DNA from: a virus
Reading direction: 5' to 3' (one strand)
DNA: 35,913 nt
IMG/VR virus record: IMGVR_UViG_3300021432_000004
Span: 1 to 35,913 of that record
In this document: piece by piece, positions 1 through 33,456 of the stretch
Numbering within the stretch: the stretch's first letter is position 1
Layout: each line of letters opens with the position of its first letter
Notes under the pieces: model-generated
What the model was told of the DNA's origin: nothing
Databases searched by the model: none
What the model saw: the letters and a program-made list of their open reading frames with translations, nothing else
Translations under genes and position numbers: made by a program

Positions 1-94
1 CACAACCTCAATCACTGCTGAGTGATGAGGAAATAGACGCTATCTATTTTAAGCAATTGAATCAGCACGTTCGAGAAGGCGACTTCCCAACCAT
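1..94. repeat. Window-end overlap, copy 1 (identical to 35820-35913)
   Basis: Read directly: the first 94 nt recur exactly as the last 94 nt, giving a unit length of 35819 bp. Consistent with a circularly closed or permuted contig, or a short direct terminal repeat. Confidence 0.9.
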
Positions 95-6560: not shown

Positions 6561-6638
6561 CAGGGTTTAGGCTAGTCCGGTAAAGTCAGCCGCCTTGGAA
6601 GCGGGAAATCGGTGGTTCAAATCCATCAGCCCTGACCA
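6561..6638 (+). tRNA. tRNA-Pro (anticodon UGG) with encoded CCA
   Basis: Hand-folded cloverleaf. Acceptor CAGGGTT/AGCCCTG; D stem GGCT/AGTC. Anticodon loop CU-UGG-AA at 6594-6600. T arm GGTGG-TTCAAAT-CCATC. C1-G72 and A73 fit Pro identity. One G.G mismatch at 27:43. Confidence 0.75.
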
Positions 6639-6705: not shown

Positions 6706-6969
6706 ATGGCAGAACGTCTACATAAGCGACATCAGGACGAGGTGAGGTCAAAAATCCAAGCCAGTCAGCTCATAAACGTGCTGCAAAATCATGCACTTAT
6801 GAAGGACGAAAAAGAACTTTCTTCGTCGAGACTAAAGGCAATAGAAATTTTATTGCGTAAAAGCGTTCCAGACCTATCACAAGTTCAGCTTGAGGGCCGT
6901 TTAACCACAATGACACTCGCAGAAGAACTCGCCTCGCTCAATGGCAAGCCAAATACAAGTCGCGATTAA
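6706..6969 (+). CDS. Putative small terminase subunit
   Basis: 87-aa helical basic protein immediately upstream of, and overlapping, the large terminase. Positional inference. Confidence 0.6.
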   Translation: MAERLHKRHQDEVRSKIQASQLINVLQNHALMKDEKELSSSRLKAIEILLRKSVPDLSQVQLEGRLTTMTLAEELASLNGKPNTSRD

Positions 6970-8332
6970 GCGCTGGCGCAAGGGAGGGCCGGCACTCTTC
7001 GCTTCCGAGGTATTGGGCGCTGAACCCGATAAATGGCAATGGGAAGCTAGCAAGCTCCTTGTTGACAAACGCAAGCTGTCTGTGCGTTCCGGCCATGGTG
7101 TGGGCAAGTCCACCTTCATGGCTTGGTGTGTGCTCTGGTTCGCCGCCTGCTATTTCCCATGCAAAATTCCTTGTACGGCTCCAACTGGTCATCAACTGGA
7201 TGACGTACTGTGGGCTGAGCTTGCTAAATGGCATAGGATCATGGGCGAGAAGTTCCCGGCCTTGGCCGCAGAATTTGAATGGTCATCAGGCTCCTTCAAG
7301 ATGAAAAGCCATCCAAGCGAGTCGTTTGCTGTCGCGAGGACATCGCGCCCGGAGAAGCCGGAAGCGCTCCAGGGATTCCATGCTGACAATATTCTGTTTC
7401 TTATCGACGAGGCGAGCGGCGTCGCCGATAACGTCTTTGAAGTCGCTGAAGGTGCTTTGTCGACCGAGGGCGCCTACGTTGTCATGGCCGCAAACCCGAC
7501 CAGGCAGTCTGGCTATTTCTTCGACTCGCACCATAAGATGCGCTCCGATTGGGCAGCTTTACATGTCAACGGTGAGAACTGCGCGCGCGTGTCAAAAGCT
7601 TACATCGAGAGCATGGCGAAGAAATATGGGAAGCAGTCTTCAATCTACAAGGTACGCGTGCGCGGCGACTTCGCAGCAGCAGCCGATGGCGTTATCTCCC
7701 TGGAATCCTGCGAATCAGCAATGGTGCGGGAGGTGGCATTGAAAGATCAGGCGCCTATCATTTGGGGGCTTGATGTGGCGCGCTTCGGGGATGACTCAAC
7801 GGCACTTGCCAAGCGCCAAGGTAATTGGCAGCTTGAGAAATGCCGGGAATGGTACGGCAAGGACACTATGCAGACGGTGGGCCTCATCAAGTCTGAGTGG
7901 GATTCTACGCAAATGAGCTTGCGGCCGGCATCGATCAATGTGGACGTCATAGGTATTGGCGCTGGCGTCGTGGATAGGCTCAAGGAGCTTGGCTTGCCAG
8001 TCTACGGGGTGAATGTGGCTGAGGCTGCAGCAAGCAACGCCGGGGACGCTTCCTACAGCCGCCTGCGGGACGAACTATGGTTCAAAGGCCGCGAATGGCT
8101 TTTGGCGCTGGATTGCAAGTTACTTGACGATGAAGACCTGATAGGAGAACTTACCACGCCTAAATATGCAATTCTATCGAATGGTGATATAAAGGTGGAA
8201 AGTAAGCAAGAAATGAAGGAGAGAGGCGTAAAGAGCCCGAACTTGGCCGATGCGTGGCTGCTGACATTTGCGAGCGACGGAGTTGCAACTTGGGGTAAAT
8301 CACTCAATTATCCGAAAATGAGGTATGCATAA
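6941..8332 (+). CDS. terL: Terminase large subunit
   Basis: Walker A SGHGVGKST, Walker B ILFLIDEASGV, and a C-terminal nuclease-like region. Located before the portal. Confidence 0.9.
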   Translation: MASQIQVAIKRWRKGGPALFASEVLGAEPDKWQWEASKLLVDKRKLSVRSGHGVGKSTFMAWCVLWFAACYFPCKIPCTAPTGHQLDDVLWAELAKWHRIMGEKFPALAAEFEWSSGSFKMKSHPSESFAVARTSRPEKPEALQGFHADNILFLIDEASGVADNVFEVAEGALSTEGAYVVMAANPTRQSGYFFDSHHKMRSDWAALHVNGENCARVSKAYIESMAKKYGKQSSIYKVRVRGDFAAAADGVISLESCESAMVREVALKDQAPIIWGLDVARFGDDSTALAKRQGNWQLEKCREWYGKDTMQTVGLIKSEWDSTQMSLRPASINVDVIGIGAGVVDRLKELGLPVYGVNVAEAAASNAGDASYSRLRDELWFKGREWLLALDCKLLDDEDLIGELTTPKYAILSNGDIKVESKQEMKERGVKSPNLADAWLLTFASDGVATWGKSLNYPKMRYA

Positions 8333-8395
8333 AAGGAATCTTTTTCCTATTCAAGCATAAATGTACTAAAATATCCGCGAATCAATAACGCACAA

Positions 8396-8414
8396 ACGCT
8401 GTGAAGCGCTGGAG
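8396..8414 (+). promoter_or_regulatory. Tetraloop hairpin + GGAG cassette, copy 1 (ACGCT-GTGA-AGCG-CTGGAG)
   Basis: Stem CGCT/AGCG, GNRA loop GTGA, GGAG 9 nt before portal ATG 8424. Confidence 0.65.
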
Positions 8415-8423
8415 ATATAGACG

Positions 8424-10790
8424 ATGGCCGGATTGTCACAGGACGAATTAAAAGCGTTGGTCGGCATGGAGATGAGGCAAAGTCTCGGTTATTCGTCTTC
8501 CAAACTCTCCGCTGCCCGGCAGAAGGCAGAATATTACTACCTCGGATTGCCAGTCGGTACTCTCTCCCCTCCCGAAGTCGAAGGCCGTTCAAGCGTAGTT
8601 TCAACCGACGTGCGCGACACCATAGAATCGATGCTTCCGCAGTTGATGGCTATTTTCTGCGGCGGCGATACCGTCGTGGAGTTTGAGCCACAATTGCCTG
8701 GCGACGAGCAAAAAGCACAGCAGATCACCGATTACATGAATTACCTGTTCTTCAAGAAGAACGAAGGTTTCCTGCGCGCGTACGTGTGGATGAAAGATGC
8801 ATTGCTGCAGAAAAACGGGATTGTCAAATGCTGGTGGGATACACGTTGGGAAGAAAAGAAAGAAGAATACAAGGGGCTGGACCAGGTTGAATTAGCGACC
8901 ATTATGGACGATCCCGAGGTGGAAGTCACAGAACAAACCTCCTATTCTGACGAATATGACGCCAAGCAGCGTCAGGACGCTATCAGCCAGCTTCAGCAGC
9001 AACTCCAGCAAGCAGCAGCGCAAAATCCCCCTCCGCAAGCTATTCAAGCAGCTCAATCCGGTGACCCGCGCGCGGTGCAGGCGATTGCCCAGGGTAATCA
9101 GCAGAAGCAGCAAGCCATGCAACAGCTTCAGCAGCAGATAGCGCAGATTCAAGCGCAGCCTCCAGTGTTGCTCTACGATATCACTTGCAAGCGCACCAAG
9201 AAGGGCGGCAAGCTTTCAATCGAAAACGTTCCACCAGAGGAATTGCTGATTTCTCGCAACGCCAAGAGCATACAAACCGCGAAGTTTGTCGGGCATCGAG
9301 TGCAGCGCACAGTCTCCGAGCTTAAGTCGATGGGATACAAGAATGTCGACGATATCTCGGGCGAAGACCAGGGACAGGCTGTCAATTCCGAGCGCATACA
9401 GCGGCTATCCTGGAATGACGAAAACGCCTATTTGTCGGATGAAATCAATACTTCAGATGAAAGCCAGCGCCTAATTTGGGTGACAGAGTGCTATATCCGT
9501 TGCGACTTCGACGGTGACGGCATTAGCGAATTGCGCAAGGTAACTGTGGCCGGCAATGAATTGCTGGATAACGAAGAAATTGATTACACGCCTTTCGCCA
9601 GCATTACGCCAGTTCCGCTCCCGCACACTTTCTTTGGTCTTTCCGTTGCTGATCTGGCGATCGACAGCCAGACCATCAAGACCAGCATCTTGCGTTCGCA
9701 GCTTGATAATCTGTATTTGGACGTCAACGGACGCTATTTCGCGGTCGATGGCCAGGTTAATCTGGATGATTTGCTGTCATCTCGCCCTGGCGGCGTAGTG
9801 CGCGTGAAGCAGCCTGGCGCCGTGGGTAGACTAGACCAGAGCAGCGGCGATATCAATTACTCGCTCCAGATGATGGAGTACATGCAGCAGGACTTAGAGA
9901 ACAAGACGGGCTGGAGCCGCCAGAGCATGGGCAATTCGGCGACAGGCTTGAATACCACGGCGACGGCGGCCAATATCGTGACCAACAAGGCCGACATGCG
10001 CGTTGACCTGATCGCTCGCCATTTTGCCGAGGGATTCACTGAGTTATTCAAGATGATGCTGAAACTGATATGCCAGCATCAAGACGAGAAATCCCAGATC
10101 AGACTTGCCGGCCAATGGGTAGATATCGACCCGCGCGAGTGGCGTAACCAATTCGACGTGAATATCAATGTTGGCGTCGGTATGGGCAATAAGGATCAGA
10201 AGGTAGCGCACTTGCTGGCAATGATCGGCCAGCAAGAGAAAGTGTTCCCCCTGGGCGTTGCCAATCCCGAGAATATCTATCAATCCAGTGCTGAGCTGGC
10301 TAAACTGTTGGGTTATCGCAACGGCGATAAATTCTTCAGTGATCCAGCACAGCAACCGCCGCAACCTCCCAAGCCTGATCCTGCTCAATTGAAGATTCAG
10401 GCAGATCAAGCATCCGACCAGGCACGCGTGCAGGCCGACATTCAGAAGACACAGGCGCAAATCCAGGCAGACAAAGATAGGCAGGAAATGGAAATGCAGA
10501 TGCGTAGCCAGGAGCTCGCACAGCAAGGGCAATTGCGCCTCCAAGAATTGCAGCTTGAGGCCAATAAGCAGGAATTGCAGGCAAAAAACGACATGTTGGA
10601 GCGTCAACATAAAGCAGAATTAGACGCACAACTTGCCCAGCAGCGTATAGAATATGACAAGTGGGCAAAAGAGGGAGATTGGCGTAATTCGCTGATGATA
10701 GCTGAACTTTCATCGAAAACGACGCTGGTCAATCCATTAATCCAGGCCGCTATTCAGGCCGAATCTAGCGAGTCGAGGCCGATGCCATGA
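8424..10790 (+). CDS. Portal protein (P22-type) with Q-rich insertion and long C-terminal coiled coil
   Basis: 788 aa downstream of TerL. Conserved N-terminal pattern (EYYYLG, PEVEGRS, VSTDVRDTIE). C-terminal heptad-rich Q/E/K tail. Confidence 0.85.
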   Translation: MAGLSQDELKALVGMEMRQSLGYSSSKLSAARQKAEYYYLGLPVGTLSPPEVEGRSSVVSTDVRDTIESMLPQLMAIFCGGDTVVEFEPQLPGDEQKAQQITDYMNYLFFKKNEGFLRAYVWMKDALLQKNGIVKCWWDTRWEEKKEEYKGLDQVELATIMDDPEVEVTEQTSYSDEYDAKQRQDAISQLQQQLQQAAAQNPPPQAIQAAQSGDPRAVQAIAQGNQQKQQAMQQLQQQIAQIQAQPPVLLYDITCKRTKKGGKLSIENVPPEELLISRNAKSIQTAKFVGHRVQRTVSELKSMGYKNVDDISGEDQGQAVNSERIQRLSWNDENAYLSDEINTSDESQRLIWVTECYIRCDFDGDGISELRKVTVAGNELLDNEEIDYTPFASITPVPLPHTFFGLSVADLAIDSQTIKTSILRSQLDNLYLDVNGRYFAVDGQVNLDDLLSSRPGGVVRVKQPGAVGRLDQSSGDINYSLQMMEYMQQDLENKTGWSRQSMGNSATGLNTTATAANIVTNKADMRVDLIARHFAEGFTELFKMMLKLICQHQDEKSQIRLAGQWVDIDPREWRNQFDVNINVGVGMGNKDQKVAHLLAMIGQQEKVFPLGVANPENIYQSSAELAKLLGYRNGDKFFSDPAQQPPQPPKPDPAQLKIQADQASDQARVQADIQKTQAQIQADKDRQEMEMQMRSQELAQQGQLRLQELQLEANKQELQAKNDMLERQHKAELDAQLAQQRIEYDKWAKEGDWRNSLMIAELSSKTTLVNPLIQAAIQAESSESRPMP

Positions 10791-11803
10791 GCTTAACCAC
10801 AATCACAGGCGGCAATAACAGCAATGTCACGATCAATGATAATGGTTCGGTTCTTTTGCTTCGCACGCTTGGCGCTGGTAGCTGCAGCGTTACTATAAAT
10901 TCTGGCCTCGCTGGCTTCAAGCCTATCGAGTTTTCCGGGCAACGCACGATATCCTTCCCAGCTTCTGGCATAGTGAATATCGCGGCGACAAATGGCAGCG
11001 TAGTATGGGAATTGGGCGATGCGGCAAGCCTGGGGTCACAGGCTATTGGAGCTCAGCCTGAAGACGTGCTGACGATCAAGCAAATGCAGATGACGATCGC
11101 CGGGACGCCAATCCCGCTTACTGGCCCGACACTGCAAGCGACCAATTCGCTCAATAACTACACGCAGATTTCCATCATCAACAAGCTGAATGGGGTGAAT
11201 TCCAGCGCTGATGTCATTACCTACCCTGACAATGGTAACGACGTTGCCGGCTGGCTGGATCACGGCATTACCTCTTCTGGCTACAACCAAGCAGCTTATT
11301 CTGTGACGGGTGCCAACGAGGGCTACATGTTCATGTCGGCCCCTGCCAGCAGTGGCAACAGCGGCGATTTCGTCTACGCGACAGATGCCACTGGAACAAG
11401 CAACGGTTTCCGCTGGTACACCAACGGCTTTACGAAAGCCATTGGTGCATGGTGTACGAAGATAGTCGGGGCTTCTGGTCTGTTTATGGTGGGCGCCGGC
11501 TTGTCGCTGTCGAATCTGTCCAAGATCATCACGAACATTGCGGCTGCTACGACTTACACAGTTCCTGCCGGCGCATCTTACGTGAACGTGACTACGTCCG
11601 GCGCTTCTATCGCTACTACCTTTCCCGCTGCTGCTGCTGCGATTGACGGCCTGATGATAACGGTCACACCTGGCGCCAGCGTAGCGACGGCAACATGGGT
11701 AAGTACTGGTGCTACTTTCATCGGCGCGCCCGCCGCGTGGACTGCGAACGTGCCAATTCGGATGATTTACGATCATGCTTCCCTGAAATGGTATCAGTGC
11801 TGA
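10787..11803 (+). CDS. Hypothetical virion-module protein, 338 aa
   Basis: ATGA overlap with the portal stop. S/T/G/A-rich, beta-rich-looking. No motif recognised. Confidence 0.75.
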   Translation: MSLTTITGGNNSNVTINDNGSVLLLRTLGAGSCSVTINSGLAGFKPIEFSGQRTISFPASGIVNIAATNGSVVWELGDAASLGSQAIGAQPEDVLTIKQMQMTIAGTPIPLTGPTLQATNSLNNYTQISIINKLNGVNSSADVITYPDNGNDVAGWLDHGITSSGYNQAAYSVTGANEGYMFMSAPASSGNSGDFVYATDATGTSNGFRWYTNGFTKAIGAWCTKIVGASGLFMVGAGLSLSNLSKIITNIAAATTYTVPAGASYVNVTTSGASIATTFPAAAAAIDGLMITVTPGASVATATWVSTGATFIGAPAAWTANVPIRMIYDHASLKWYQC

Positions 11804-11804
11804 T

Positions 11805-12095
11805 ATGGCGACGATAGAGCAGCGTATTTATGACGGCAACAGGGCCGCAGAAGTTTTAAATAACGAGGCTTTTCAAAAAGCTTTTGCCGACATCGAGGAA
11901 CAGTTTGTCCAGGCGTGGAAGGATTCTCCCGCGCGCGACGTAGAAGGAAGGGAGAAAATATGGACTTGCTTGGGGTTGTTGAAAAAGTTAAAGGGAAGCC
12001 TGGAAGGAAGCCTAGAAACCGGGAAATTAGCGGAGCTGGACATGCTCCACAAGCGCAACGCCTTGGAACGTATGAAGGACTCGTTCGGGCTGTAG
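11805..12095 (+). CDS. Small head-module protein, 96 aa
   Basis: ATG 2 nt after the upstream stop; helical charged protein; position between portal and scaffold. Confidence 0.75.
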   Translation: MATIEQRIYDGNRAAEVLNNEAFQKAFADIEEQFVQAWKDSPARDVEGREKIWTCLGLLKKLKGSLEGSLETGKLAELDMLHKRNALERMKDSFGL

Positions 12096-12265
12096 AGGAA
12101 TTTGAGGAGCCGCATGATTCTGTGGCAATGGCTTTCCATCCTGAACCGAAAGAGAAATTCATTCGCGCCGGCAGAGGATGGGTAAGGGTGGAAGTGGGAG
12201 AGATTGGTTTTCAAACCAATAGCGGTAAATTTGTAAAGTTGTAAAAAGTTGTTATATTGAATCTT

Positions 12266-12304
12266 AACGCCGCGAGGCGCTGGGAGCGGGCGAAAGTCCC
12301 GCTC
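12266..12304 (+). promoter_or_regulatory. Tetraloop hairpin cassette, copy 2 (AACGCC-GCGA-GGCG-CTGGGAG) plus a second 7-bp hairpin
   Basis: Stem CGCC/GGCG with loop GCGA. Then GAGCGGG/CCCGCTC (12284-12304) with an inner GAAA loop, then AGGAG and ATG 12324. Confidence 0.65.
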
Positions 12305-12323
12305 ATTGACTAGGAGCAGAAAA

Positions 12324-13286
12324 ATGGATAATCCTTCACAGGAACCCAGCAATACACCGTTAAACGTGAACAGTGCAGTTCAAGCCTTTGGCGCTTTTCT
12401 GGAGGCACCTGAAATAAAGGAAAAGAGCGCCCAAGACTTGGAGCAGGAGGCATTACAGGAATTGACCGCGAAGACTGCGGTAGAGCCTGAAAAGACCGAA
12501 GCAGAAGCCGAGCCAGAAGAAGAAGGCGCAGTCACCATCGAAGTTGATGGCAAGACTGTGACTTTGACCAAGGAGCAATTGGCAGATGCCTACAAGAACG
12601 GTTTGCGCCAATCCGACTACACTAAGAAGACCATGGAGGCCGCCGAGCAGCGTAAAGCCGCCGATGCGGAACTCCAGAAAGCACGAACAGAAAGAAACGC
12701 TTACCAGCAAAACTTGCAAAAGAACGCAGTGCAGCTAGAAGCGGTATTGCAACAGCAACAAAGCATCAACTGGGAGCAATTGCTCAATACTGATCCTGTC
12801 GAATACATGAGACAGCAGCACCTCCTTAACCAGAGACAAGCCGCCTATCAGCAAACGATTCAGCAGTATCAGAAAATAGAGCAAATGAACCAGGCCGAGC
12901 AACAGCAGCAGATGGAAGCTTACCTTCACACGCAGCAAGCCGAATTGCTTGCCAAGCTGCCTGAATGGAAAGACCCAGCGAAAGCGACGCCGGAAAAAGA
13001 GGCCATCGTGAAATACCTTGTCGATCAAGGTTTTCCTGCGGCGGCTTTGGATAATATCAGCGATCACAAAACCGTCATTTTGGCGCGTAAGGCGATGCTT
13101 TATGACAAGATGATGGAAAAGGCCGGTGCCGCAGCGAAGAAAATCGCGACGGTTCCCACCAAGATCGTGAAACCTGGAGTAGGCGAGTCGCCGAACAATC
13201 TTGACAAGCGCAGCCAAGCATTTCAGCGCCTGGGCAAGACGGGACGGATTGAAGACGCAGCCGCTCTATTTTCTGACTACGTTTAA
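12324..13286 (+). CDS. Scaffolding protein
   Basis: ATG 12324 with AGGAG RBS; the TTG 12306 start is rejected. 320 aa, E/Q/A/K-rich coiled coil immediately upstream of the major capsid gene. Confidence 0.8.
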   Translation: MDNPSQEPSNTPLNVNSAVQAFGAFLEAPEIKEKSAQDLEQEALQELTAKTAVEPEKTEAEAEPEEEGAVTIEVDGKTVTLTKEQLADAYKNGLRQSDYTKKTMEAAEQRKAADAELQKARTERNAYQQNLQKNAVQLEAVLQQQQSINWEQLLNTDPVEYMRQQHLLNQRQAAYQQTIQQYQKIEQMNQAEQQQQMEAYLHTQQAELLAKLPEWKDPAKATPEKEAIVKYLVDQGFPAAALDNISDHKTVILARKAMLYDKMMEKAGAAAKKIATVPTKIVKPGVGESPNNLDKRSQAFQRLGKTGRIEDAAALFSDYV

Positions 13287-13304
13287 CGCCGCGAGGCGCT
13301 GGAG
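13285..13304 (+). promoter_or_regulatory. Tetraloop hairpin + GGAG cassette, copy 3
   Basis: AACGCC-GCGA-GGCG-CTGGAG; GGAG 8 nt before capsid ATG 13313. Confidence 0.65.
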
Positions 13305-13312
13305 AAACCAAA

Positions 13313-14239
13313 ATGACCGCACCAACCAATACCTTTCTGACCACGGCCGCCATCGGCAATCGTGAAGACTTGACGGATATCATCTATCGTATCTCGCCGA
13401 CCACGACGCCGCTGCTGAACCTGGCAGCCAAGGCCAAGGCAAGCAACACTCTGCACGAGTGGCAAACTCAAGACCTCGCGGCTGCATCCACAAGCAATGC
13501 ACAGGCCGAGGGCGACAATGCTTCGGCAAAGACCGTGACACCGACGGTTCGCTTGAACAATCGCACTCAGATTTCGACAAAAACAGTGATCGTCTCCGGT
13601 ACGCAAGAGGCGATGAACCCAGCCGGACGCAAGGATGAACTGGCTTACCAGTTGTCGTTGGCATCCCTAGAACTGAAACGCGACATGGAATCGTCATTGA
13701 CTCAGTTGGACGTGACCGCGACATCGCCTCGCCAAGCGCGCGGCCTGCGTGGCTGGCTCGTTGACAACATTGACAACGGCACTGGCTATGTTGCACCGTC
13801 CTATACCGGCAATACCGGTACGACAGATGGCACGCAGCGCGCATTCACCGAATCTTCACTGAAGAATACGCTGCAGAAGATTTACGTCGCCGGTGGCGAT
13901 CCTGACGTCGTGATGACAGGCCCAGCGCAGAAGCAGACGTTCTCTACCTTCACCGGTAATGCGACACGCTTCGACAAGTCGGAAGACGAAAAACTGTATG
14001 CCGGCATTTCGGTGTATGTCTCCGACTTCGGCACATTGAATATCATGCCGAACCGCTTCCAGCGCACCCGCGATGTATTCGTGATCGAAAGCGACAAGGT
14101 TGCGGTGGCTTATCTGCGTCCATTCCAAACCATTAAATTGGCGACCACTGGCGATGCGCTGCAACGTGAATTGGTTTGCGAATTCACTTTGGAATATCGT
14201 GCACCGAAGTCTGGTGGCGCGATTTACGATGTTTTGTAG
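13313..14239 (+). CDS. Major capsid protein
   Basis: 308 aa after the scaffold. The N-terminal motif GNREDLTDIIYRISPTTTPLL is typical of a podovirus/HK97-fold capsid family. Confidence 0.85.
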   Translation: MTAPTNTFLTTAAIGNREDLTDIIYRISPTTTPLLNLAAKAKASNTLHEWQTQDLAAASTSNAQAEGDNASAKTVTPTVRLNNRTQISTKTVIVSGTQEAMNPAGRKDELAYQLSLASLELKRDMESSLTQLDVTATSPRQARGLRGWLVDNIDNGTGYVAPSYTGNTGTTDGTQRAFTESSLKNTLQKIYVAGGDPDVVMTGPAQKQTFSTFTGNATRFDKSEDEKLYAGISVYVSDFGTLNIMPNRFQRTRDVFVIESDKVAVAYLRPFQTIKLATTGDALQRELVCEFTLEYRAPKSGGAIYDVL

Positions 14240-14261
14240 TATTTCCTAACTGAAACTTAAT

Positions 14262-14280
14262 GGGGCTTCGGCCCCTTCTT
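14262..14280 (+). terminator. GGGGC-TTCG-GCCCC hairpin followed by TTCTT (partial terminator or mRNA stabiliser)
   Basis: 5-bp GC stem with a UUCG tetraloop 23 nt after the capsid stop; a T-rich but interrupted tail. Confidence 0.5.
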
Positions 14281-14295
14281 AGAAAGGAAAATATC

Positions 14296-14766
14296 ATGGG
14301 TACAAATCTCATCCAGCGGCCTGATGGCGGCATGGACTTCCAGGACAGCAGCGGGAATATTGTTGGGTCCATTGGCGGCGCTGTGCAAAGCTTCCGCAAT
14401 ATCAAAGTAGCGAAGATACCCATTACCGGCGTCGCAGCTACAACTGGCGGTGCACTGTTCTCTTGGGCCAATCCAGAGCAAGGCTCCATCATCATTGAGC
14501 GTTTCCAGATCGACATCACGACCGCTTCCACTGGCGCGGCCAATGGTTCGTTTGGCGTGGCAGCCAACGGCACCACCTCAAGCGCGAACCTGATTGACAC
14601 CTATGCACTGGCAAGCACGGCAAAGGTGGTGGATAACCATGTGGATAACTCTACCAATGGTAAGTTTGTGCAGAAGATGACGACCAGTCAGTTTGTCACT
14701 GGCACTGGATCGGCCACGACGGCCGGCCTTGTTGGAAACGTCTACATTCACTACTACCTGGCGTAA
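14296..14766 (+). CDS. Hypothetical virion protein, 156 aa (possible decoration/head protein)
   Basis: ATG 14296 with AAGGAAA RBS. The 14260 start would place the hairpin inside the coding sequence. Confidence 0.75.
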   Translation: MGTNLIQRPDGGMDFQDSSGNIVGSIGGAVQSFRNIKVAKIPITGVAATTGGALFSWANPEQGSIIIERFQIDITTASTGAANGSFGVAANGTTSSANLIDTYALASTAKVVDNHVDNSTNGKFVQKMTTSQFVTGTGSATTAGLVGNVYIHYYLA

Positions 14767-14770
14767 TAAG

Positions 14771-14792
14771 AGCGGGAGCCATCCCGCTTTTT
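14771..14792 (+). terminator. Rho-independent terminator candidate
   Basis: AGCGGGA-GCCA-TCCCGCT followed by TTTTT, 5 nt after stop 14766. Confidence 0.65.
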
Positions 14793-14795
14793 CTT

Positions 14796-14815
14796 AATGC
14801 CGTGAGGCACTGGAG
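14796..14815 (+). promoter_or_regulatory. Tetraloop hairpin + GGAG cassette, copy 4 (AATGCC-GTGA-GGCA-CTGGAG)
   Basis: Stem TGCC/GGCA (compensatory relative to CGCC/GGCG), loop GTGA, GGAG 5 nt before ATG 14821. Confidence 0.65.
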
Positions 14816-14820
14816 AAACA

Positions 14821-15123
14821 ATGGAAAGCGGTTCATACCTCAAGGTCGTTAAAACAGGTGTCACCATTACTACGAGTGGCGCCTCTGCCTCCGCGACATT
14901 ACCGACCACGCAAAGCGGCATCCCTCCCAACTATGTGCGTGTGGCGGCCTCTGCTGCGGCATGTGTGCGGCTCACCAAAGGCGCATCTACCGCGTTGACT
15001 ACAGACCTACAAGTGCAGCCAGGCGACGCGGTTATTTTGGCGGTGAATGGCGAAGATACCATATCAGCGATTCAAGTTTCTGCGGCCGGCGTGGTGCAAT
15101 GCTCGCCATTGGAGAATCTGTAA
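14821..15123 (+). CDS. Hypothetical small structural-module protein, 100 aa
   Basis: Preceded by cassette copy 4; A/S/T/V-rich; the stop overlaps the next start (TAATG). Confidence 0.75.
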   Translation: MESGSYLKVVKTGVTITTSGASASATLPTTQSGIPPNYVRVAASAAACVRLTKGASTALTTDLQVQPGDAVILAVNGEDTISAIQVSAAGVVQCSPLENL

Positions 15124-15407
15124 TGTCTGTCGAAACTCGACTTCATGTGCATGATGGGTCCGTGACGTTTGAGCGCATACAGGACTGCACGCCTATTCTT
15201 GAGCGTGCTACCGCGTTGCACAACGGCGGTCATCATGGCTCTAGCGAGATGCGGCATGCTGCCGATTTCCCCATGGTGATCGTGGAAAAATACTGCAATG
15301 ACCATCATATCGAGTTTGCCGAGTTTATCCAAAACAAAGATCACGTGCGCCGCATGCTGGCTGATCCTGCATTGGCAGGCTTCCGTGTCTGGAAAGGCCG
15401 CGTATGA
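15123..15407 (+). CDS. Hypothetical protein, 94 aa
   Basis: ATG 15123 is coupled to the upstream stop. The longer 14961 start overlaps the previous gene in another frame. Confidence 0.65.
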   Translation: MSVETRLHVHDGSVTFERIQDCTPILERATALHNGGHHGSSEMRHAADFPMVIVEKYCNDHHIEFAEFIQNKDHVRRMLADPALAGFRVWKGRV

Positions 15408-16027: not shown

Positions 16028-17617
16028 ATGGGTTTAGAGTCAGGCACCTACATATCAGACCTCGTTGCGACAAATCCTCTTGGCACTGATCCTAAGAGCC
16101 AAGGCGACGATCATTTGCGCCTGATAAAATCGACGATAAAGACAACCTTCCCAAATGTGACTGGGGCTGTCACGATGACTCACGCGCAGTTGAATTTGAT
16201 CCCGACATTTGGAACTATCGCTGGTCAGGTTTGGACAGGGCAGCATGATTTTACGGGTGCCACATGGCTGCGCGCTCCTGGTCCCGTCAATCCGACAGAT
16301 GTGGTCATTAAATCGTATGCTGATGCATTGCCTTTTGGCGGTGTTGATCCTATTCCCTGTATTGGAGCGGGAGGCACGGCAGACGCCATCACGGCCAACT
16401 ATTCGCCAGCGATTACTTTATCTGATCTGCGTAAATGCATGGTGGTATGCACAGCGGCGAATGCGACGACCACGCCGACATTTTCTCCAAATGGACTGAC
16501 AGCGCATACTATCACTATGAACGGAGGACAACCACTTGCACCAGGCAGTATTCCGGGCGCAGGCTTCGTGGCAATCTTGGAATACAACCTAGCGAATACA
16601 CGCTGGGAACTGTTGAATCCCAAAGTCGCAGTTTCGCCGCTATTATGGGGCGACGGCTCAGACGGCAATGTAACGGTCAATGGTGCGGTCACTTTGTCAC
16701 GTGACATGTTCTATAACAACTTAACTTTGACGGCCGGCGCGGCACTGAAGACGAACGGTTATAGGATTCATGTCGCTGGAACCTTGGATATCAGTGCTGC
16801 TCCAGCAGGGGCAATTTTCTGGAACGGAAGTACCGGGGGGAACGGTGTCGTCAATGGCCCAGGAACCGGCGGCGCAATTCTAACATCGGCAAATCTAGGA
16901 GGGTCTCCAGCCGGGGGGGCCGGCGGGGCAAGTGGATCAGCGTCGCCTGGCGTCGCAGGAAATAACGGCGGCGCAACTATCATTGGAGGAACAGGAGCAG
17001 GGAATACATATCTTCCCGGAGCTGCTGCTTCTGTCAGCTTTAAAGGAACTAGTTTTCCTGGGTTCCCCGCTGGCACGCAAATTCAAGGCACAGCGGTATT
17101 TCTTCCTCTTGGGGGCGCCAGCGGTGGGGGTGGAGGTGCTGATGCTCTCAGTGCTGGTGCAGGCGGCGGCGGCGGTGGTTCTGGTGGTGGCGTTATAGTA
17201 ATAATCGCAAATATCATCGCCAGAGGATCAAATGTAACAGCCGGAATTATCCAGGTAAAAGGCGGCAATGCCGGGAATGGATATGGTATCGGTGTGGCCG
17301 GCGGTGGCAATGGAGGCGGTAGCGGCGGTGGCGGTGGATGGCTAGTAATTGTTTTTGGAACGACTACAGGATCGACAATTGTAAATGCCATTGACGTGAG
17401 CGGCGGCTCTGGTGGAACTGGTGGGAATAGTAGTGGCGGTGGAAATGTGGGCGGCGGCGGTGGTGGTTCTGGAGGAACTGGCACAGTCAATATTTACAAT
17501 CTTTCTGCCGGTACTTTTTCTGCTGTGACGGCTATTGCAGGAACCGCAGGTAGCGCGTTTTCTGGCGGGACGGGAGGCGCAGGCGCTCCCGCAAACGTAA
17601 AACAGGTGAACCTATGA
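16028..17617 (+). CDS. Tail fibre-like protein with Gly-rich C-terminal half
   Basis: The N-terminal motif GTYISDLVATNPLGTDPKSQGDDHLRLIKSTIKTTFPNV is common in phage tail fibres. The C-terminus alternates poly-Gly loops with hydrophobic strands. Confidence 0.8.
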   Translation: MGLESGTYISDLVATNPLGTDPKSQGDDHLRLIKSTIKTTFPNVTGAVTMTHAQLNLIPTFGTIAGQVWTGQHDFTGATWLRAPGPVNPTDVVIKSYADALPFGGVDPIPCIGAGGTADAITANYSPAITLSDLRKCMVVCTAANATTTPTFSPNGLTAHTITMNGGQPLAPGSIPGAGFVAILEYNLANTRWELLNPKVAVSPLLWGDGSDGNVTVNGAVTLSRDMFYNNLTLTAGAALKTNGYRIHVAGTLDISAAPAGAIFWNGSTGGNGVVNGPGTGGAILTSANLGGSPAGGAGGASGSASPGVAGNNGGATIIGGTGAGNTYLPGAAASVSFKGTSFPGFPAGTQIQGTAVFLPLGGASGGGGGADALSAGAGGGGGGSGGGVIVIIANIIARGSNVTAGIIQVKGGNAGNGYGIGVAGGGNGGGSGGGGGWLVIVFGTTTGSTIVNAIDVSGGSGGTGGNSSGGGNVGGGGGGSGGTGTVNIYNLSAGTFSAVTAIAGTAGSAFSGGTGGAGAPANVKQVNL

Positions 17618-27804: not shown

Positions 27805-27817
27805 CGCCGATTTCTCT

Positions 27818-27838
27818 TAACGCTGTGAAGCGCTGGAG
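27818..27838 (+). promoter_or_regulatory. Tetraloop hairpin + GGAG cassette, copy 5 (TAACGCT-GTGA-AGCG-CTGGAG)
   Basis: The core is identical to copy 1. GGAG lies 6 nt before ATG 27845. Confidence 0.65.
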
Positions 27839-27844
27839 TCCATA

Positions 27845-29146
27845 ATGAGTACTGCACCGACTAGCATCTATCTGACCCAATTCATGGGACAGGTCTACGA
27901 TCAAGCCGACCAAGGCGCTTGCGTGCCTAATGCCATGATGGCATCGATTAATTTGATCGAGCGCGAACAAGGCAAACAGGCATTTAACGGCTCCAGGGAT
28001 TTCGTGTATTGGAATGGGCAAGAGGACATTTCTCACCATTCCATACCCTATGGGACAGTTACCTCGGAAGTCCTGGCTGATTTAGAGACGAAAGGCGTCG
28101 CGCCGGAATCCATGTGGTCCTATAACGACACCAATGCACTGACAAAGGCGCCGGATGCCGTCTATCAGGAAGCGCTGAAGCATACGATAACCAGCTACGA
28201 CGCCGACTTGTTGGCACCGGCTCAGCAAAATTATGTAATGCTGAATTGGATTGTCGGGGAATTGAAGCAGGGCAAGCCGGTGCAGATGGATTTCAATGCC
28301 AAGACTTGGCTAACCTATGAGCATGGAGCATTGAATACATTGCACGTTCCAGTTGATCCTAATGGTGCTGGATTACTTGGAGGCCATTGCACGACAATTG
28401 TAGGCTATGATGCACATTTGGATGCTTCTCCACAAAACCCACTTGGTTCTCTCATCATTCAAAATTCATGGGGGACAGGTTATGGCGACAACGGATTAGA
28501 AGTGATTCCTTTGGCTGAATTCCCTGGAGATTTTAGTCCTATCAATGGACAGCCTAATGTGTGGGAATTGTATGCAATCAGTGGCTTTGAAGGTGTTGAC
28601 CAGAAATACACAGCTTCTAAAGCTCAAGTGTCTGACGCCTATACGACGATCTTGCAACGCGCGCCAGAAGCGGCCGGCATGAACTTTTTTTCCAGTTTGT
28701 TGGACAATGCAACGGTCAATCTTGATCAGATTTACGACAGCATGTTTAACTCTTCCGAAGGCCAAGCTATCTACGGCGGCATGAGCCATGCGCAGATCGT
28801 CACGCAGATGTATCGCTCAGTGCTCAATCGTGATCCTGATGCTGCTGGGTTTGCGTTCTTCTTGAACAGGTTAGATACTGGCGCATGCACGCCTGGGCAA
28901 ATGTATGAGCAGACCATTGCCGCAGTTAAGGGCATCACATCCGGCAATGATTTGATGGGACATGACTATCTGCTGAATAAAGAGGATATGGGGGAGTATT
29001 ACAGTATCGCGATGCAAATCGACGGCACTCACAGCGCGTTGGCACATAACATTATTTCGCAAGTTACGTCTGACGCCAATCAGTGCCAAATCGTCAAAGT
29101 GGGCATTGCGCCACAGTTGGGCGCGGATTGGAACGTGCATTCTTAA
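27845..29146 (+). CDS. Papain-like (C1) cysteine peptidase fused to two DUF4214 repeats
   Basis: Catalytic-type motifs DQGACVPNA (Cys), GGHCTTIVGYD (His) and IQNSWGTGYGDNG (Asn). C-terminal LQRAPEAAGMNFF and LNRDPDAAGFAFFLNRL are DUF4214-like. Confidence 0.85.
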   Translation: MSTAPTSIYLTQFMGQVYDQADQGACVPNAMMASINLIEREQGKQAFNGSRDFVYWNGQEDISHHSIPYGTVTSEVLADLETKGVAPESMWSYNDTNALTKAPDAVYQEALKHTITSYDADLLAPAQQNYVMLNWIVGELKQGKPVQMDFNAKTWLTYEHGALNTLHVPVDPNGAGLLGGHCTTIVGYDAHLDASPQNPLGSLIIQNSWGTGYGDNGLEVIPLAEFPGDFSPINGQPNVWELYAISGFEGVDQKYTASKAQVSDAYTTILQRAPEAAGMNFFSSLLDNATVNLDQIYDSMFNSSEGQAIYGGMSHAQIVTQMYRSVLNRDPDAAGFAFFLNRLDTGACTPGQMYEQTIAAVKGITSGNDLMGHDYLLNKEDMGEYYSIAMQIDGTHSALAHNIISQVTSDANQCQIVKVGIAPQLGADWNVHS

Positions 29147-30077: not shown

Positions 30078-30103
30078 TCACTTCTCCTATTGATAAATTA
30101 ATT

Positions 30104-30352
30104 TTAATCGGAGCCGGAGCCGTAGCCGTAGCCGTAGCCGGAGCCGGAGCCGTAGCCGTCGCCGTCGCCGTAGCCGGAGCCGGAGCCGTCGCCGTCGCCG
30201 TCGCCGTCGCCGGAGCCGGAGCCGTAGCCAGAGCCGGAGCCGTAGCCGGAGCCGTAGCCGTCGCCGGAGCCGGAGCCGTCGCCGGAGCCGTCGCCGTAGC
30301 CGGAGCCGTCGCCGGAGCCGTAGCCGGAGCGAAACACTTTATCTGTAATCAT
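30104..30352 (-). CDS. Gly-(Ser/Tyr/Asp) dipeptide-repeat protein, 82 aa
   Basis: From ATG 30352 (alternative GTG 30373): MITDKVFR followed by 74 residues made only of G, S, Y and D in a strict alternation of X and G. Confidence 0.65.
   Translation of the reverse strand: MITDKVFRSGYGSGDGSGYGDGSGDGSGSGDGYGSGYGSGSGYGSGSGDGDGDGDGSGSGYGDGDGYGSGSGYGYGYGSGSD
30107..30328. repeat. Imperfect hexanucleotide tandem array (GCCGNN on + strand), about 37 units
   Basis: Read directly: GCCGGA/GCCGTA/GCCGTC units. Coding for GS/GY/GD on the minus strand. Confidence 0.9.
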
Positions 30353-32557: not shown

Positions 32558-32753
32558 TAATAAGCGCCAAAATAATCAACGCTGATATCACACAAAGTTT
32601 TATGACAGTTCGCGTAAAACTTTCTTCCGATGGCAAGCCCAACATCGCGTCAGATAGCTGATGCGGCCGGTTCAGCTTCTCGCGTACCTTAATAGCGCGC
32701 TTGATTGTGCGGCGTGCACTGAGGTCGCTTAGGTAAGCGCGAAGGTGTTTCAT
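32544..32753 (-). CDS. Small tail-anchored membrane protein, 69 aa
   Basis: C-terminal hydrophobic helix VIKLCVISALIILALII. ATGA-type overlap with the Cys-repeat gene. Confidence 0.65.
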   Translation of the reverse strand: MKHLRAYLSDLSARRTIKRAIKVREKLNRPHQLSDAMLGLPSEESFTRTVIKLCVISALIILALIIEKY

Positions 32754-33430: not shown

Positions 33431-33456
33431 GATTTTCCTTTGGGGCTGTGAAAAAA

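What the first reader, a model, noticed from the sequence alone, without database searches (positions are those of the whole stretch)
12266..14815. Five-copy tetraloop-hairpin + GGAG cassette with compensatory stem changes in front of late genes
Five copies share the consensus TTAA-YGCY-GYGA-RGCR-CTGGAG:
- 8396-8414, before the portal
- 12266-12286, before the scaffold
- 13285-13304, before the capsid
- 14796-14815, before the 100-aa gene
- 27818-27838, before the C1 peptidase

The 4-bp stem varies as CGCC/GGCG, CGCT/AGCG and TGCC/GGCA. Both the first and the fourth base pair change in a compensatory way. The loop stays GNRA (GCGA or GTGA). This covariation argues for selection on an RNA (or cruciform) structure rather than on primary sequence alone. 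The 3' flank CTGGAG supplies the Shine-Dalgarno 5-9 nt before the ATG in four of the five copies. The element therefore marks a regulon of highly expressed late genes, and unexpectedly it includes the peptidase-DUF4214 gene. Possible roles: mRNA processing/stabiliser site, translational enhancer, or binding site for a phage or host factor.
Basis: seen in the sequence. Interest (0 to 1): 0.7.

Follow-up and report, generated by a model that had tools for sequence, protein, structure and literature searches.

The report
Hairpin-plus-ribosome-site cassette before phage late genes
A 22-base RNA hairpin joined to the ribosome-binding site sits in front of five late genes of this phage; the same cassette precedes capsid and other virion genes in more than 100 uncultured phage contigs linked to Betaproteobacteria, so it is a real, undescribed expression signal whose molecular partner is still unknown.

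Summary
The window is a complete ~35.8-kb SU10/LUZ24-like podophage genome. It holds exactly five copies of (C)TTAA-[4 bp]-GNGA-[4 bp]-CTGGAG, all on the coding strand (0.01 expected by chance).

- Three pattern scans of IMG/VR and one of GTDB genomes found the cassette in about 120 further contigs: 154-169 distinct instances.
- Where stem positions were left free, 96 of 97 and 59 of 60 matches still base-pair.
- Three of the four pairs show double compensatory changes. The loop is always GNGA or GNGAN, and the stem is always 4 bp.
- About 80% of copies end 10-17 nt before an ATG, usually via CUGGAG or CUGGAA. The others are upstream members of tandem pairs or lie in scaffold-gene leaders.
- Downstream genes are almost all virion or packaging genes, including five different capsid families.
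- Genome hits are all Betaproteobacteria. Capsid relatives from other hosts, cultured phages, Rfam and searched papers lack it.

Best reading: a cis-acting mRNA hairpin that is part of the translation-initiation region of late genes and is read sequence-specifically by an unidentified partner. Promoter, nut-like, terminator and RNase III readings fail tests. I rate it a new variant of a known kind, interest about 0.6.

The parts
8393..8414 (+). Copy 1 (CAAA-CGCT-GTGA-AGCG-CTGGAG), before the portal gene (ATG 8424). Stem arms 8397-8400 and 8405-8408, loop 8401-8404.
   Evidence: 30.3 bits; portal = phrog_1216. Orthologous portal genes in other loci also carry the hairpin.
12264..12285 (+). Copy 2 (TTAA-CGCC-GCGA-GGCG-CTGGGA) in the scaffold-gene leader. 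It does not supply the SD.
   Evidence: 35.3 bits. The same arrangement of hairpin, second hairpin and separate SD recurs before scaffold genes in L002, L007, L025, L039, L047 and L067.
12286..12302 (+). Second, larger hairpin (GCGGGCGAAAGTCCCGC) between copy 2 and the scaffold SD (AGGAG 12312-12316; ATG 12324).
   Evidence: Its sequence varies between relatives but its position is conserved.
13283..13304 (+). Copy 3 (TTAA-CGCC-GCGA-GGCG-CTGGAG), before the major capsid gene (ATG 13313). The TAA inside TTAA is the scaffold stop codon.
   Evidence: (37.8 bits). MCP = phrog_1328 / PF17236 SU10_MCP. Thirteen orthologous MCP genes carry it.
14770..14792 (+). Intrinsic-terminator-like hairpin plus T run (GAGCGGGAGCCATCCCGCTTTTT) directly upstream of copy 4.
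   Evidence: dG -13.3; z = -4.4 for the composite. The same terminator-then-cassette layout is flagged in 28 of 84 instances by an automatic screen that overcounts, about 20-24 by my reading.
14794..14815 (+). Copy 4 (TTAA-TGCC-GTGA-GGCA-CTGGAG), before the 100-aa gene (ATG 14821).
   Evidence: 40.5 bits. The ~100-aa family is preceded by the cassette in 18 distinct loci.
27817..27838 (+). Copy 5 (TTAA-CGCT-GTGA-AGCG-CTGGAG), before the Peptidase_C1/DUF4214 gene (ATG 27845). It starts 13 nt after the Rz-like spanin stop.
   Evidence: 43.6 bits. Pfam hits for the downstream gene; spanin.

Best explanation
The element is a cis-acting RNA module in the late mRNAs. It is a 4-bp hairpin capped by a GNGA tetraloop (sometimes GNGAN), flanked by (C)UUAA on the 5' side and C(U/A/C)G on the 3' side. 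It is fused to, or placed a fixed 10-17 nt upstream of, the start codon.

At that position it occupies roughly -12 to -27 relative to AUG, immediately 5' of the SD/anti-SD helix. From the known mRNA path, that is the stretch a docking 30S subunit holds on its platform.

I propose it works as a portable, structured ribosome-binding site. The hairpin gives late virion genes a defined initiation region that does not depend on upstream context. Its invariant unpaired nucleotides are read by one specific partner that sets the initiation rate. That partner would be the 30S platform or a platform-bound protein, more probably host than phage.

Shown:
- the structure and its covariation;
- strand and position relative to start codons;
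- the gene classes served;
- the distribution across phages and hosts.

Inferred:
- that it acts in RNA;
- that it acts on translation initiation;
- that the effect is positive;
- the identity of the partner.
For: Base pairing is selected.
- 59 of 60 and 96 of 97 matches pair when stem positions are free.
- 99.3% of cells pair, and pairs 1, 3 and 4 carry double changes (CG/UA; CG/UA; CG/UA/AU).
- With the whole stem unconstrained, 68 of 70 copies have 4/4 pairs.
- In the one contig with stem UACC/GGUA, even the otherwise invariant pair 2 changes, to A-U.

The loop behaves like an RNA GNRA-type loop.
- It is always GNGA, with N free (U 73, A 32, C 28, G 5).
- Sixteen copies have a GNGAN pentaloop. 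Insertions fall in the loop and never in the stem.

Position points to translation initiation.
- All copies are co-oriented with the gene.
- The distance from stem end to ATG peaks at 10-14 nt in three counts.
- This distance is kept even in a few portal genes with no SD-like purines.

It is not promoter-linked or lineage-bound.
- Only 1 of 86 copies has a sigma70-like site upstream, and many sit 3-16 nt after the preceding stop codon.
- It serves non-homologous genes: MCP PHROGs 1328, 283, 10, 212 and 6671; portals 1216 and 156.
- It is absent from capsid relatives on other hosts.
- The 7 real genome hits include five named betaproteobacterial genera; the other two are MAGs labelled only Pseudomonadota.
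- No phage RNA polymerase or RNA-binding protein was detectable.

The hairpin forms in context: median stem probability 0.80.
Against: - No expression data exist, so the direction of the effect (enhancing or repressing) is a guess.
- About 20% of copies are not next to an SD. These are the upstream members of tandem pairs, with variable 13-28 nt spacing, and the scaffold leaders. The hairpin therefore has some role that does not need an adjacent SD.
- If a general host component read it, host genes would be expected to use it. The full 22-nt form occurs only in phage-like contexts in 185,579 species genomes.
- Thermodynamic modelling does not show the SD to be unusually exposed: median unpaired probability 0.26.
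- Some orthologous genes do without it.
- The strict invariance of the loop G3, the AA and the 3' C is more typical of a dedicated protein operator than of a generic enhancer.
Confidence: 0.4

Rival explanations
1. Translational operator for a dedicated RNA-binding protein. A phage-encoded protein that travels in the same gene pool, or a host protein, binds the hairpin sequence-specifically. From there it occludes or opens the adjacent SD to time late protein synthesis or to set the ratios of virion proteins. This would work like MS2/PP7 coat-protein operators or T4 RegA.
For: - Fixed 4-bp stem and invariant loop G1, G3, A4; the 5' AA and the 3' C are near-invariant in the flank-free census (134 and about 150 of 169).
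- Tandem pairs of hairpins are common, as expected for multiple binding sites.
- The hairpin is conserved in scaffold leaders away from the SD.
- It is restricted to late genes.
- It is absent from host chromosomes in its full form.
Against: - No candidate protein was found. Pfam and PHROG scans of essentially all window ORFs and an Arg-rich-motif scan found no RNA-binding domain.
- In the sequence held, the window's ORFs find homologues only in loci that share its structural module, none in the loci with other capsid families.
- Spacing in the tandem pairs is variable.
Confidence: 0.25
2. mRNA punctuation. An endoribonuclease cuts the long late transcript in the single-stranded pyrimidine/UUAA tract just 5' of the hairpin. 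The downstream cistron is left with a near-terminal 5' hairpin plus RBS, which is stabilising. The upstream cistron is left with its terminator hairpin as a 3' cap. The result is different half-lives for the capsid, scaffold and tail segments.
For: - An automatic screen flags a hairpin plus T run 5-21 nt upstream in 28 of 84 copies (about 20-24 look genuine; a few are the neighbouring cassette copy or a coding-region hairpin), so the AU-rich tract is bracketed by two hairpins.
- The upstream 14 nt are G-depleted and T-rich, with a conserved C-U-U-A-A.
- The copies partition the late region into functional blocks.
- From general knowledge: RNase E sites are often AU-rich tracts beside stem-loops, and 5'-terminal hairpins protect E. 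coli mRNAs such as ompA and the T7 gene 10 leader.
Against: - RNase E has loose specificity, which would not explain the invariant GNGA loop, the 4-bp length or the 3' CUGG.
- A 4-bp hairpin (-4.6 to -6.9 kcal/mol) is a weak protector.
- Cutting before UUAA would leave 4 or more unpaired nt.
- Many copies follow a stop codon directly, with no upstream hairpin.
- No phage endoribonuclease was detected.
Confidence: 0.15
3. Loading site for processive antitermination. It would be a compact boxA/boxB-like nut site, or an ops-like element whose 12-nt hairpin forms in nascent RNA or in the non-template DNA strand. It would recruit an N-like, NusG-paralogue or Nus-factor complex so that RNA polymerase reads through the terminators inside the late operon.
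For: - The GNGA/GNGAN loop on a short stem resembles boxB, which I recall as a GNRA-like pentaloop.
- CUCUUAA in some copies resembles the 3' half of boxA, CGCUCUU(U)A.
- Terminators lie inside the late operon, and relatives encode Q-type antiterminators.
- The 12-nt stem-loop equals the length of the 12-nt ops element as I recall it.
Against: - Only C-U-U-A-A is conserved upstream, not boxA.
- No copy lies near the presumed late promoter upstream of the terminase genes. The first copy comes after TerL.
- Copies sit immediately after terminators rather than before them, and inside the 30S footprint of the next gene. A bound ribosome would strip any such complex.
- The fixed distance to the ATG is not expected for nut or ops sites.
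- No N-like or NusG-like protein was found.
Confidence: 0.07
4. DNA-level element. It would be a promoter for a phage or redirected polymerase (a T7-like -17..+6 layout with GGAG at +1, or an N4-like hairpin promoter), a palindromic operator for a dimeric DNA-binding protein, or simply a conserved linker that promotes recombination between phage modules.
For: - It is a 22-26-nt conserved block, co-oriented with genes, often just after terminators and sometimes in tandem. This is promoter-like behaviour.
- It lies at module boundaries between non-homologous capsid genes in otherwise related genomes.
- Single mismatches are C.A three times against U.G once, so wobble statistics do not favour + strand RNA.
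Against: - No RNA polymerase gene. The largest ORFs are the portal and tail or ejection proteins.
- Compensatory changes that keep pairing with three different pair identities, and loop insertions, are not expected for a promoter or a dimer operator.
- A 4-bp stem is too short to extrude as a cruciform.
- GGAG or GGAA at canonical SD spacing, with purine-rich SD variants in half of the copies, fits a ribosome site rather than a +1 region.
- Recombination would be a by-product and does not explain purifying selection on individual positions while the loop N is randomised.
Confidence: 0.05

Closest known systems
Start-associated sequences (SAS/ESAS) of cluster K mycobacteriophages (PMC3203893)
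   Same: - A short asymmetric repeat containing the SD core, 3-7 bp before start codons and almost always in one orientation.
- 11-19 copies per genome, in front of unrelated gene families.
- Essentially absent from the host genome.
- Function still unknown, with a proposed role in translation initiation through a host or phage factor.
   Different: - SAS is a 13-bp non-hairpin sequence (GGGATAGGAGCCC).
- It is restricted to one phage cluster and to the non-structural right arm.
- The authors say its ESAS inverted repeats do not support RNA pairing.
- The element here is a covarying GNGA hairpin. It serves virion genes and is shared by phages with different capsid families.
boxB hairpins of lambdoid nut sites (N-dependent antitermination)
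   Same: A short stem capped by a GNRA-type loop, including pentaloop variants. It is read sequence-specifically in nascent RNA, with a pyrimidine-rich ...CUCUUA element upstream. This comparison rests on my own knowledge of lambda and P22 nut sites.
   Different: - nut sites occur once per early operon, near the promoter and upstream of terminators, and are not tied to a start codon.
- boxA is not conserved here.
- No N-like protein was found.
- The copies lie in the late region directly before ATGs.
T7 gene 10 leader (5' stem-loop + epsilon UUAACUUUA + SD)
   Same: The leader of a major capsid gene combines a hairpin, a UUAAC-containing tract and a strong SD, and acts as a portable translation enhancer and mRNA stabiliser. 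This comparison rests on my own knowledge.
   Different: - The T7 hairpin sits at the primary 5' end made by T7 RNA polymerase and is far from the SD.
- Epsilon is proposed to pair with 16S rRNA.
- The T7 leader is not repeated before other genes and is not shared among unrelated phages.
Coat-protein or RegA-type translational operators (MS2, PP7, T4 RegA)
   Same: A small RNA hairpin or site overlapping or abutting the RBS, with invariant loop nucleotides and a covarying stem. It is bound by a protein that controls initiation. This comparison rests on my own knowledge.
   Different: - Those operators contain the start codon or SD inside the structure and repress a single gene (a set of early genes for RegA).
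- Here the SD lies outside the hairpin, and up to five late genes per genome carry it.
- No binding protein is known.
PeSL cassettes of T4-type phages (PMC2839356, PMC4122927)
   Same: Short conserved regulatory cassettes with a stem-loop that flank genes, are repeated within a genome, and sit at the boundaries of shuffled modules.
   Different: - PeSLs are early promoter plus terminator composites in hyperplastic regions of large myoviruses.
- The element here has no promoter, is tied to the RBS of late core genes, and its stem covaries.

Membership tests
Lambdoid nut site (boxA + boxB) | boxB: short hairpin with a GNRA-like (penta)loop | tested here: inconclusive
   4-bp stem with GNGA in 138 copies and GNGAN in 16. 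This resembles boxB, but boxB has a 5-bp stem and a pentaloop as the rule.
Lambdoid nut site (boxA + boxB) | boxA consensus CGCUCUU(U)A upstream of boxB | tested here: not met
   The upstream logo conserves only C(-3) U U A A. Positions -4 to -8 carry 0.35 bit or less.
Lambdoid nut site (boxA + boxB) | Promoter-proximal position upstream of the terminators it overrides, in an untranslated stretch | tested here: not met
   No copy lies before TerL. Copies sit 10-17 nt before ATGs and often just after terminators.
Lambdoid nut site (boxA + boxB) | Phage-encoded N-like arginine-rich protein | tested here: not met
   The Arg-rich window scan finds only out-of-frame ORFs, and there are no Pfam hits.
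Phage single-subunit RNAP promoter (T7-like) or N4 hairpin promoter | Cognate phage RNA polymerase gene | tested here: not met
   PHROG and Pfam scans of all large and small ORFs find none. The 788-aa ORF is the portal.
Phage single-subunit RNAP promoter (T7-like) or N4 hairpin promoter | Sequence conserved as duplex DNA, with no requirement for compensatory changes or tolerance of loop insertions | tested here: not met
   Three of 4 pairs covary and there are pentaloop variants.
Sigma70 promoter | -35/-10 hexamers at 16-18 bp spacing just upstream | tested here: not met
   Only 1 of 86 instances, window copy 2, has such a site.
Intrinsic terminator | GC-rich stem of at least 5 bp followed by a U run | tested here: not met
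   The stem is 4 bp and is followed by CUGGAG, not U. Separate true terminator-like hairpins lie upstream.
RNase III processing site (T7 R sites) | About 20 bp of (interrupted) double-stranded RNA | tested here: not met
   Only a 4-bp helix is conserved. Extensions are not conserved: mean pairing probability about 0.15.
Cluster K mycobacteriophage SAS | 13-bp consensus GGGATAGGAGCCC | tested here: not met
   The sequence is different and only GGAG is shared.
Cluster K mycobacteriophage SAS | A few nt upstream of start codons, one orientation, multi-copy, absent from the host | tested here: met
   This shows it works like an SAS; it is not a member.
Host repetitive extragenic palindromes (REP/MITE-like) | Many copies in host chromosomes, both orientations, not tied to start codons | tested here: not met
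   Only 9 hits in 185,579 species genomes. Seven are real and all are in phage-like contexts. Only the full 22-nt form could be scanned.
Rfam families (any) | Match to a curated covariance model | tested here: not met
   The gathering scan of the window finds only the tRNA. An E<=10 scan of 12150-14900, which holds three copies, gives nothing on the motif.
RfaH ops / JUMPStart | Consensus GGCGGTAGNNTG in a long 5' leader | not tested
   By eye the sequence differs. The ops consensus is recalled from memory and no model was run. The position next to ATG is atypical.
Kink-turn | 3-nt bulge followed by tandem sheared G.A / A.G pairs | tested here: not met
   GGCG-CUG-GA opposite AA would give G.A then A.A. 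G at 2n is absent, and there is no covariation for a non-canonical helix. Judged by inspection only.

The most novel reading that the evidence does not exclude
The hairpin is a host-clade-specific 'ribosome handle'. Unrelated phages of Betaproteobacteria have acquired the same small RNA structure horizontally because it docks directly on a conserved feature of the host 30S platform, or on a platform-bound protein. That gives late viral mRNAs privileged initiation that is partly independent of the SD. It would be a bacterial-virus counterpart of a minimal IRES or translation enhancer.

One concrete version: the GNGA loop makes a tetraloop/minor-groove contact with the CU:AG step of the GGAG:CUCC SD/anti-SD helix, two nucleotides away, and so clamps it. 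The loop-receptor rule behind this version is recalled from memory, not tested.
Probability: 0.2. Interest if true: 0.85.

Novelty: new variant of a known kind. Interest (0 to 1): 0.62.

Why it matters
If the reading is right, it would matter in four ways.
- It would be one of the clearest cases of a defined, structured ribosome-binding-site module that is exchanged among unrelated phages of one host clade and reserved for virion genes.
- It gives a ready-made, covariation-supported RNA motif for annotating late and structural genes in uncultured phage contigs, and for predicting their hosts. All hits placed below phylum level are Betaproteobacteria.
- It offers a compact 22-nt part for high-level expression in Burkholderiales-type bacteria.
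- It makes the open question raised by the mycobacteriophage SAS repeats testable. That question is whether phages carry their own code for translation initiation and who reads it. Here a simple hairpin allows clean disrupt-and-restore mutants.

If it turns out to be only a generic stabilising hairpin, it is still a useful annotation marker but of modest biological interest.

Tried and rejected
- Close DNA relatives in cultured phages: none by megablast. A blastn of six 24-nt motif variants against INPHARED at E<=10 also found nothing, so no studied phage carries it.
- Literature: full-text search for six stem-loop strings gave only unrelated primer hits. Keyword searches gave nothing on this motif (one search failed on syntax).
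- Rfam: no family matches.
- Promoter idea: no RNA polymerase gene, and sigma70-like sites before only 1 of 86 copies.
- nut/N idea: boxA is not conserved and no Arg-rich protein was found.
- Conserved SD masking by the upstream pyrimidines: seen in the MFE of window copies 4 and 5, but family-wide probability is only about 0.15. Rejected as a general feature.
- G.U-versus-A.C asymmetry to prove the RNA strand: too few cases, and they point the wrong way, C.A three times against U.G once. I do not use it.
- Trans-factor hunt: tblastn of all window ORFs against the 63 loci then held (L001-L063) finds only shared structural genes. The conserved 96-aa ORF (11805-12095) is confined to one lineage and has no family.
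- A suspected programmed frameshift between 14821-15123 and 14961-15407 is just a TAATG stop/start overlap, with the second gene starting at 15123.
- Source look-up of the capsid protein returned the source-like ENA contig (35,924 bp) and one JGI fragment, with no host information.

Full report
**1. What the window is**

The 35,913-nt window carries a 94-nt identical repeat at both ends (1-94 = 35820-35913), so it is a complete, circularly assembled genome of about 35.8 kb.

Gene content:
- Lambdoid-type early functions: a DUF1376 primosomal protein, NinB, a DUF1064 resolvase and an HTH protein.
- tRNA-Pro(UGG) at 6561-6638.
- A rightward late block:
  - TerL, 6941-8332.
  - Portal, 8424-10790.
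  - A unique 338-aa ORF.
  - A 96-aa ORF.
  - Scaffold, 12324-13286.
  - SU10-type major capsid protein, 13313-14239.
  - A 156-168-aa ORF.
  - A 100-aa ORF, 14821-15123.
  - SU10-type adaptor.
  - Tail and ejection proteins.
  - Endolysin and Rz-like spanin.
  - A Peptidase_C1/DUF4214 gene, 27845-29146.

No RNA polymerase, sigma factor, NusG-like, N-like or recognisable RNA-binding protein was found. The capsid protein is 37-48% identical to those of LUZ24-like Pseudomonas phages, Pelagibacter phage HTVC106P, Methylophilales phage Venkman and Manatee Spring podophages. There is no close DNA relative among cultured phages.

**2.

The degenerate 22-mer matches five times, all on the + strand, against 0.01 expected. 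A covariance model run without filters separates these five (30-44 bits) from everything else (9.7 bits or less), although the five were part of the model's seed alignment.

Copy 1 starts CAAA instead of TTAA. Copy 2 ends CTGGGA and is followed by a second hairpin and its own SD.

**3. It is a large family**

| Scan | Pattern | Result |
|---|---|---|
| IMG/VR | exact reader consensus | 26 stretches; in every one but the upstream member of a tandem pair (L006) an ATG follows 2-10 nt after GGAG |
| IMG/VR | outer and loop-closing pairs and loop R left free (TTAANGCNGNRANGCNCTGGAG) | 60 matches counting the window's three (57 in 54 IMG/VR stretches); 59 have both free pairs complementary; loop always GNGA; the one exception has no ATG and looks like chance |
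| IMG/VR | SD requirement dropped (TTAACGCNGNGANGCGCTG) | 106 stretches; 96 of 97 unique copies have a paired closing pair |
| GTDB, 185,579 species genomes | TTAAYGCNGNGANGCRCTGGAG | 9 stretches, 7 real |

The closing pair in the second scan is C-G, U-A, A-U or U.G, and the outer pair is C-G or U-A. By chance, 6 of 16 base combinations would pair.

Five of the seven real genome hits are named Betaproteobacteria: an Undibacterium rivi isolate, and Polaromonas, Nitrosomonas, Aquabacterium and Azonexus MAGs. The other two are MAGs labelled only Pseudomonadota. Six of the seven precede phage-type or uncharacterised ORFs. One, in the Nitrosomonas MAG, precedes a 66-aa ORF that looks by eye like a regulator.

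Pooling everything:
- 154 distinct instances carry the AA...C flanks.
- 169 distinct core hairpins are found in about 1.0 Mb with no flank constraint, against my rough estimate of 4-8 by chance.

**4. Anatomy of the family**

- Stems: CGCC/GGCG 66, CGCU/AGCG 41, CGCA/UGCG 23, CGUC/GACG 11, UGCC/GGCA 8, plus rarer forms. One contig has UACC/GGUA.
- Covariation on the model alignment (which is fitted to the model's own structure): 99.3% of cells pair. Pairs 1, 3 and 4 carry double changes. Pair 2 (G-C) is invariant. Slid controls fall to 16-67% paired.
- Loops: GUGA 73, GAGA 32, GCGA 28, GGGA 5, and 16 pentaloops GNGAN. Position 3 is never A.
- Stem length: always 4 bp.
- 5' flank: AA almost always, preceded by U, U, C (89%, 81% and 77%), in a G-depleted, T-rich tract.
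- 3' flank: C, then U (sometimes C or A), then G. A further G follows in about 82% of the flank-unbiased set.
- Because the loop N has been randomised while its neighbours are fixed, the invariance reflects selection and not recent copying.

**5. Position**

In 68 of the 69 copies with CWGGAG for which a start could be assigned, an ATG that opens a long ORF follows GGAG by 5-9 nt. In the SD-unbiased set, half have GGAG. Most of the rest have GGAA, AAGGA or a similar purine run with an ATG within about 20 nt. Measured from the C just 3' of the stem, or from the stem's last base, the ATG distance peaks at 10-14 nt.

The remaining roughly 20% fall in three groups:
- The upstream member of a tandem pair of hairpins, 13-28 nt apart. 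There are many examples, such as L014/L055, L032, L064, L066, L073, L079, L082, L088, L094, L118 and L122.
- Copies in scaffold-gene leaders, where a larger, sequence-variable hairpin and a separate SD follow. This includes window copy 2.
- A few portal genes in which the hairpin keeps its distance to the ATG but the spacer is C-rich with no SD.

Upstream context:
- An automatic screen flags a hairpin plus T run 5-21 nt upstream in 28 of 84 copies. I judge about 20-24 of these to be genuine terminators, because a few are the neighbouring cassette copy or a hairpin inside coding sequence. The pattern is typical for the ~100-aa gene after the capsid block, as at window 14770-14792.
- Many others begin 3-16 nt after the preceding stop codon, or contain it.
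- Only one of 86 has a sigma70-like site.

**6. Which genes and which phages**

Downstream genes cluster as follows:
- A P22-like ~410-aa capsid protein (phrog_283), 32 instances.
- The ~100-aa protein, 18.
- The SU10-type capsid (phrog_1328), 13.
- Scaffold, 9.
- Portal phrog_1216, 9, and portal phrog_156, 5.
- Capsid phrog_212, 5.
- Capsid phrog_10 and capsid phrog_6671/264.
- A tail protein (phrog_290), 6.
- TerL, tail fibre or spike, ejection protein and protease.

So the cassette marks virion and packaging genes in phages whose capsid genes belong to at least five different families.

Conversely, Venkman and a Manatee Spring phage share the window's capsid family but come from other hosts and have low GC. 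They have no copy (best 10.9 bits) and use plain AT-rich leaders. Within motif-bearing lineages some orthologues lack it.

The element therefore follows a host-linked gene pool rather than a structural lineage, and it is gained and lost.

**7. What it is not**

| Candidate | Why it fails |
|---|---|
| Promoter | no polymerase; covariation and loop insertions; no -35/-10 |
| Terminator | 4-bp stem and no U run |
| RNase III site | no long duplex |
| nut site | boxA not conserved; wrong place; no N-like protein |
| Host repeat | only phage-like contexts in host genomes |
| Any Rfam family | no match |
| Motif described in the searched literature | no paper holds it |
| Motif present in cultured phage genomes | no blastn match |

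Wobble statistics do not help to decide the strand (C.A three times, U.G once). My preference for + strand RNA rests on three things: the GNRA-type loop, co-orientation with the genes, and the link to the start codon.

**8. Mechanism**

The hairpin is predicted to form in context, with median probability 0.80 and -4.6 to -6.9 kcal/mol in isolation. It lies about -12 to -27 from the AUG, directly 5' of the SD helix. From the established 30S mRNA path, that is on the platform side of the subunit.

My best-supported explanation (0.40) is a structured, portable ribosome-binding site for late genes whose invariant nucleotides are read by one specific partner.

The main rival (0.25) is an operator for a dedicated RNA-binding protein. 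That model accounts better for the tandem and SD-distant copies and for the absence from host genes, but it has no candidate protein.

The other rivals:
- mRNA punctuation and stabilisation (0.15) fits the terminator/AU-tract/hairpin layout but not the sequence invariance.
- Antitermination loading (0.07).
- DNA-level roles (0.05).

SD masking by the upstream pyrimidines appears in the MFE of copies 4 and 5 but is not general.

**9. Comparison and novelty**

In behaviour the closest known thing is the start-associated sequence of cluster K mycobacteriophages. That is an SD-containing repeat 3-7 bp before start codons, in one orientation, absent from the host, with unknown function. The sequence here is different, it is a proven hairpin, it serves structural rather than non-structural genes, and it crosses phage lineages.

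It also recalls boxB, the T7 gene 10 leader and coat-protein operators (my own knowledge), and PeSL cassettes as mobile regulatory units. It fails the membership tests for each.

I rate it a new variant of a known kind (an RBS-associated cis-regulatory RNA) with interest about 0.6. The structure and distribution are unusually clean and were not described in anything I could search. The mechanism remains inferred.

Noticed in passing
window 1-94 and 35820-35913: An exact 94-nt direct repeat at the two ends of the window. It indicates a circularly closed assembly of a complete ~35.8-kb phage genome. The ENA source-like contig is 35,924 bp.
   Followed up: partly
window 6561-6638 (+): tRNA-Pro (anticodon UGG), between the early genes and the small ORF and TerL at the start of the late block.
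   Followed up: partly
window 32750-33655 (-), DNA repeats 33127-33340: A 301-aa ORF with a long run of three-residue Cys repeats (Cys every third residue: ...CSDCSDCFGCSRCFGCSRCSDCSNCSSCSSCSRC...). It is encoded by about 20 copies of a 9-nt unit. No family hit.
   Followed up: no
window 30104-30373 (-), DNA repeats 30079-30366: An 89-aa ORF that is almost entirely G-S/D/Y-G low-complexity repeats (GYGSGDGSG...), from 6/12/18-nt periodic DNA.
   Followed up: no
window 16028-17617 (+): A 529-aa tail protein whose N-terminal 71 aa match phrog_6465. Its C-terminal half is rich in Gly runs (GGGGGSGG) arising from diverged direct repeats at 16912-17475.
   Followed up: no
window 10787-11803 (+): A 338-aa ORF between the portal and the conserved 96-aa ORF. 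It has no PHROG or Pfam hit and no homologue in any of the 63 related loci then held (L001-L063), so it looks like a lineage-specific insertion in the head module.
   Followed up: partly
window 15121-15125: The 100-aa gene and the next gene (94 aa, start 15123) overlap as TAATG. The long overlapping ORF listed from 14961 is an artefact of upstream start calling, not a frameshift.
   Followed up: yes
L014 4234-4293, L055, L032, L036, L064, L066, L073, L079, L082, L088, L094, L118, L122: Tandem pairs of the hairpin, 13-28 nt apart, before a single gene. Only the downstream copy abuts the SD. The upstream copy usually still keeps CUGG.
   Followed up: partly
L010/L026 (portal upstream), L062 678, L121: The hairpin is kept 7-11 nt before the portal ATG, but the spacer is C-rich with no SD-like sequence. 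In L010/L026 the stem is UACC/GGUA, the only case where the otherwise invariant second pair changes.
   Followed up: no
L123 12602-12928 (Venkman gp37); L124 7813-8139: Motif-free relatives have an annotated Q-type or antitermination-like late antiterminator. No Q-like protein was recognisable in the window, so how its late operon is switched on is open.
   Followed up: no
window 12231-12258 (+): The only sigma70-like site next to any copy (TTGTAA-16-TATATT with TG). It ends 5 nt before the TTAA of copy 2 and overlaps the end of a 43-codon ORF. It may be the scaffold/capsid promoter or a chance match.
   Followed up: partly
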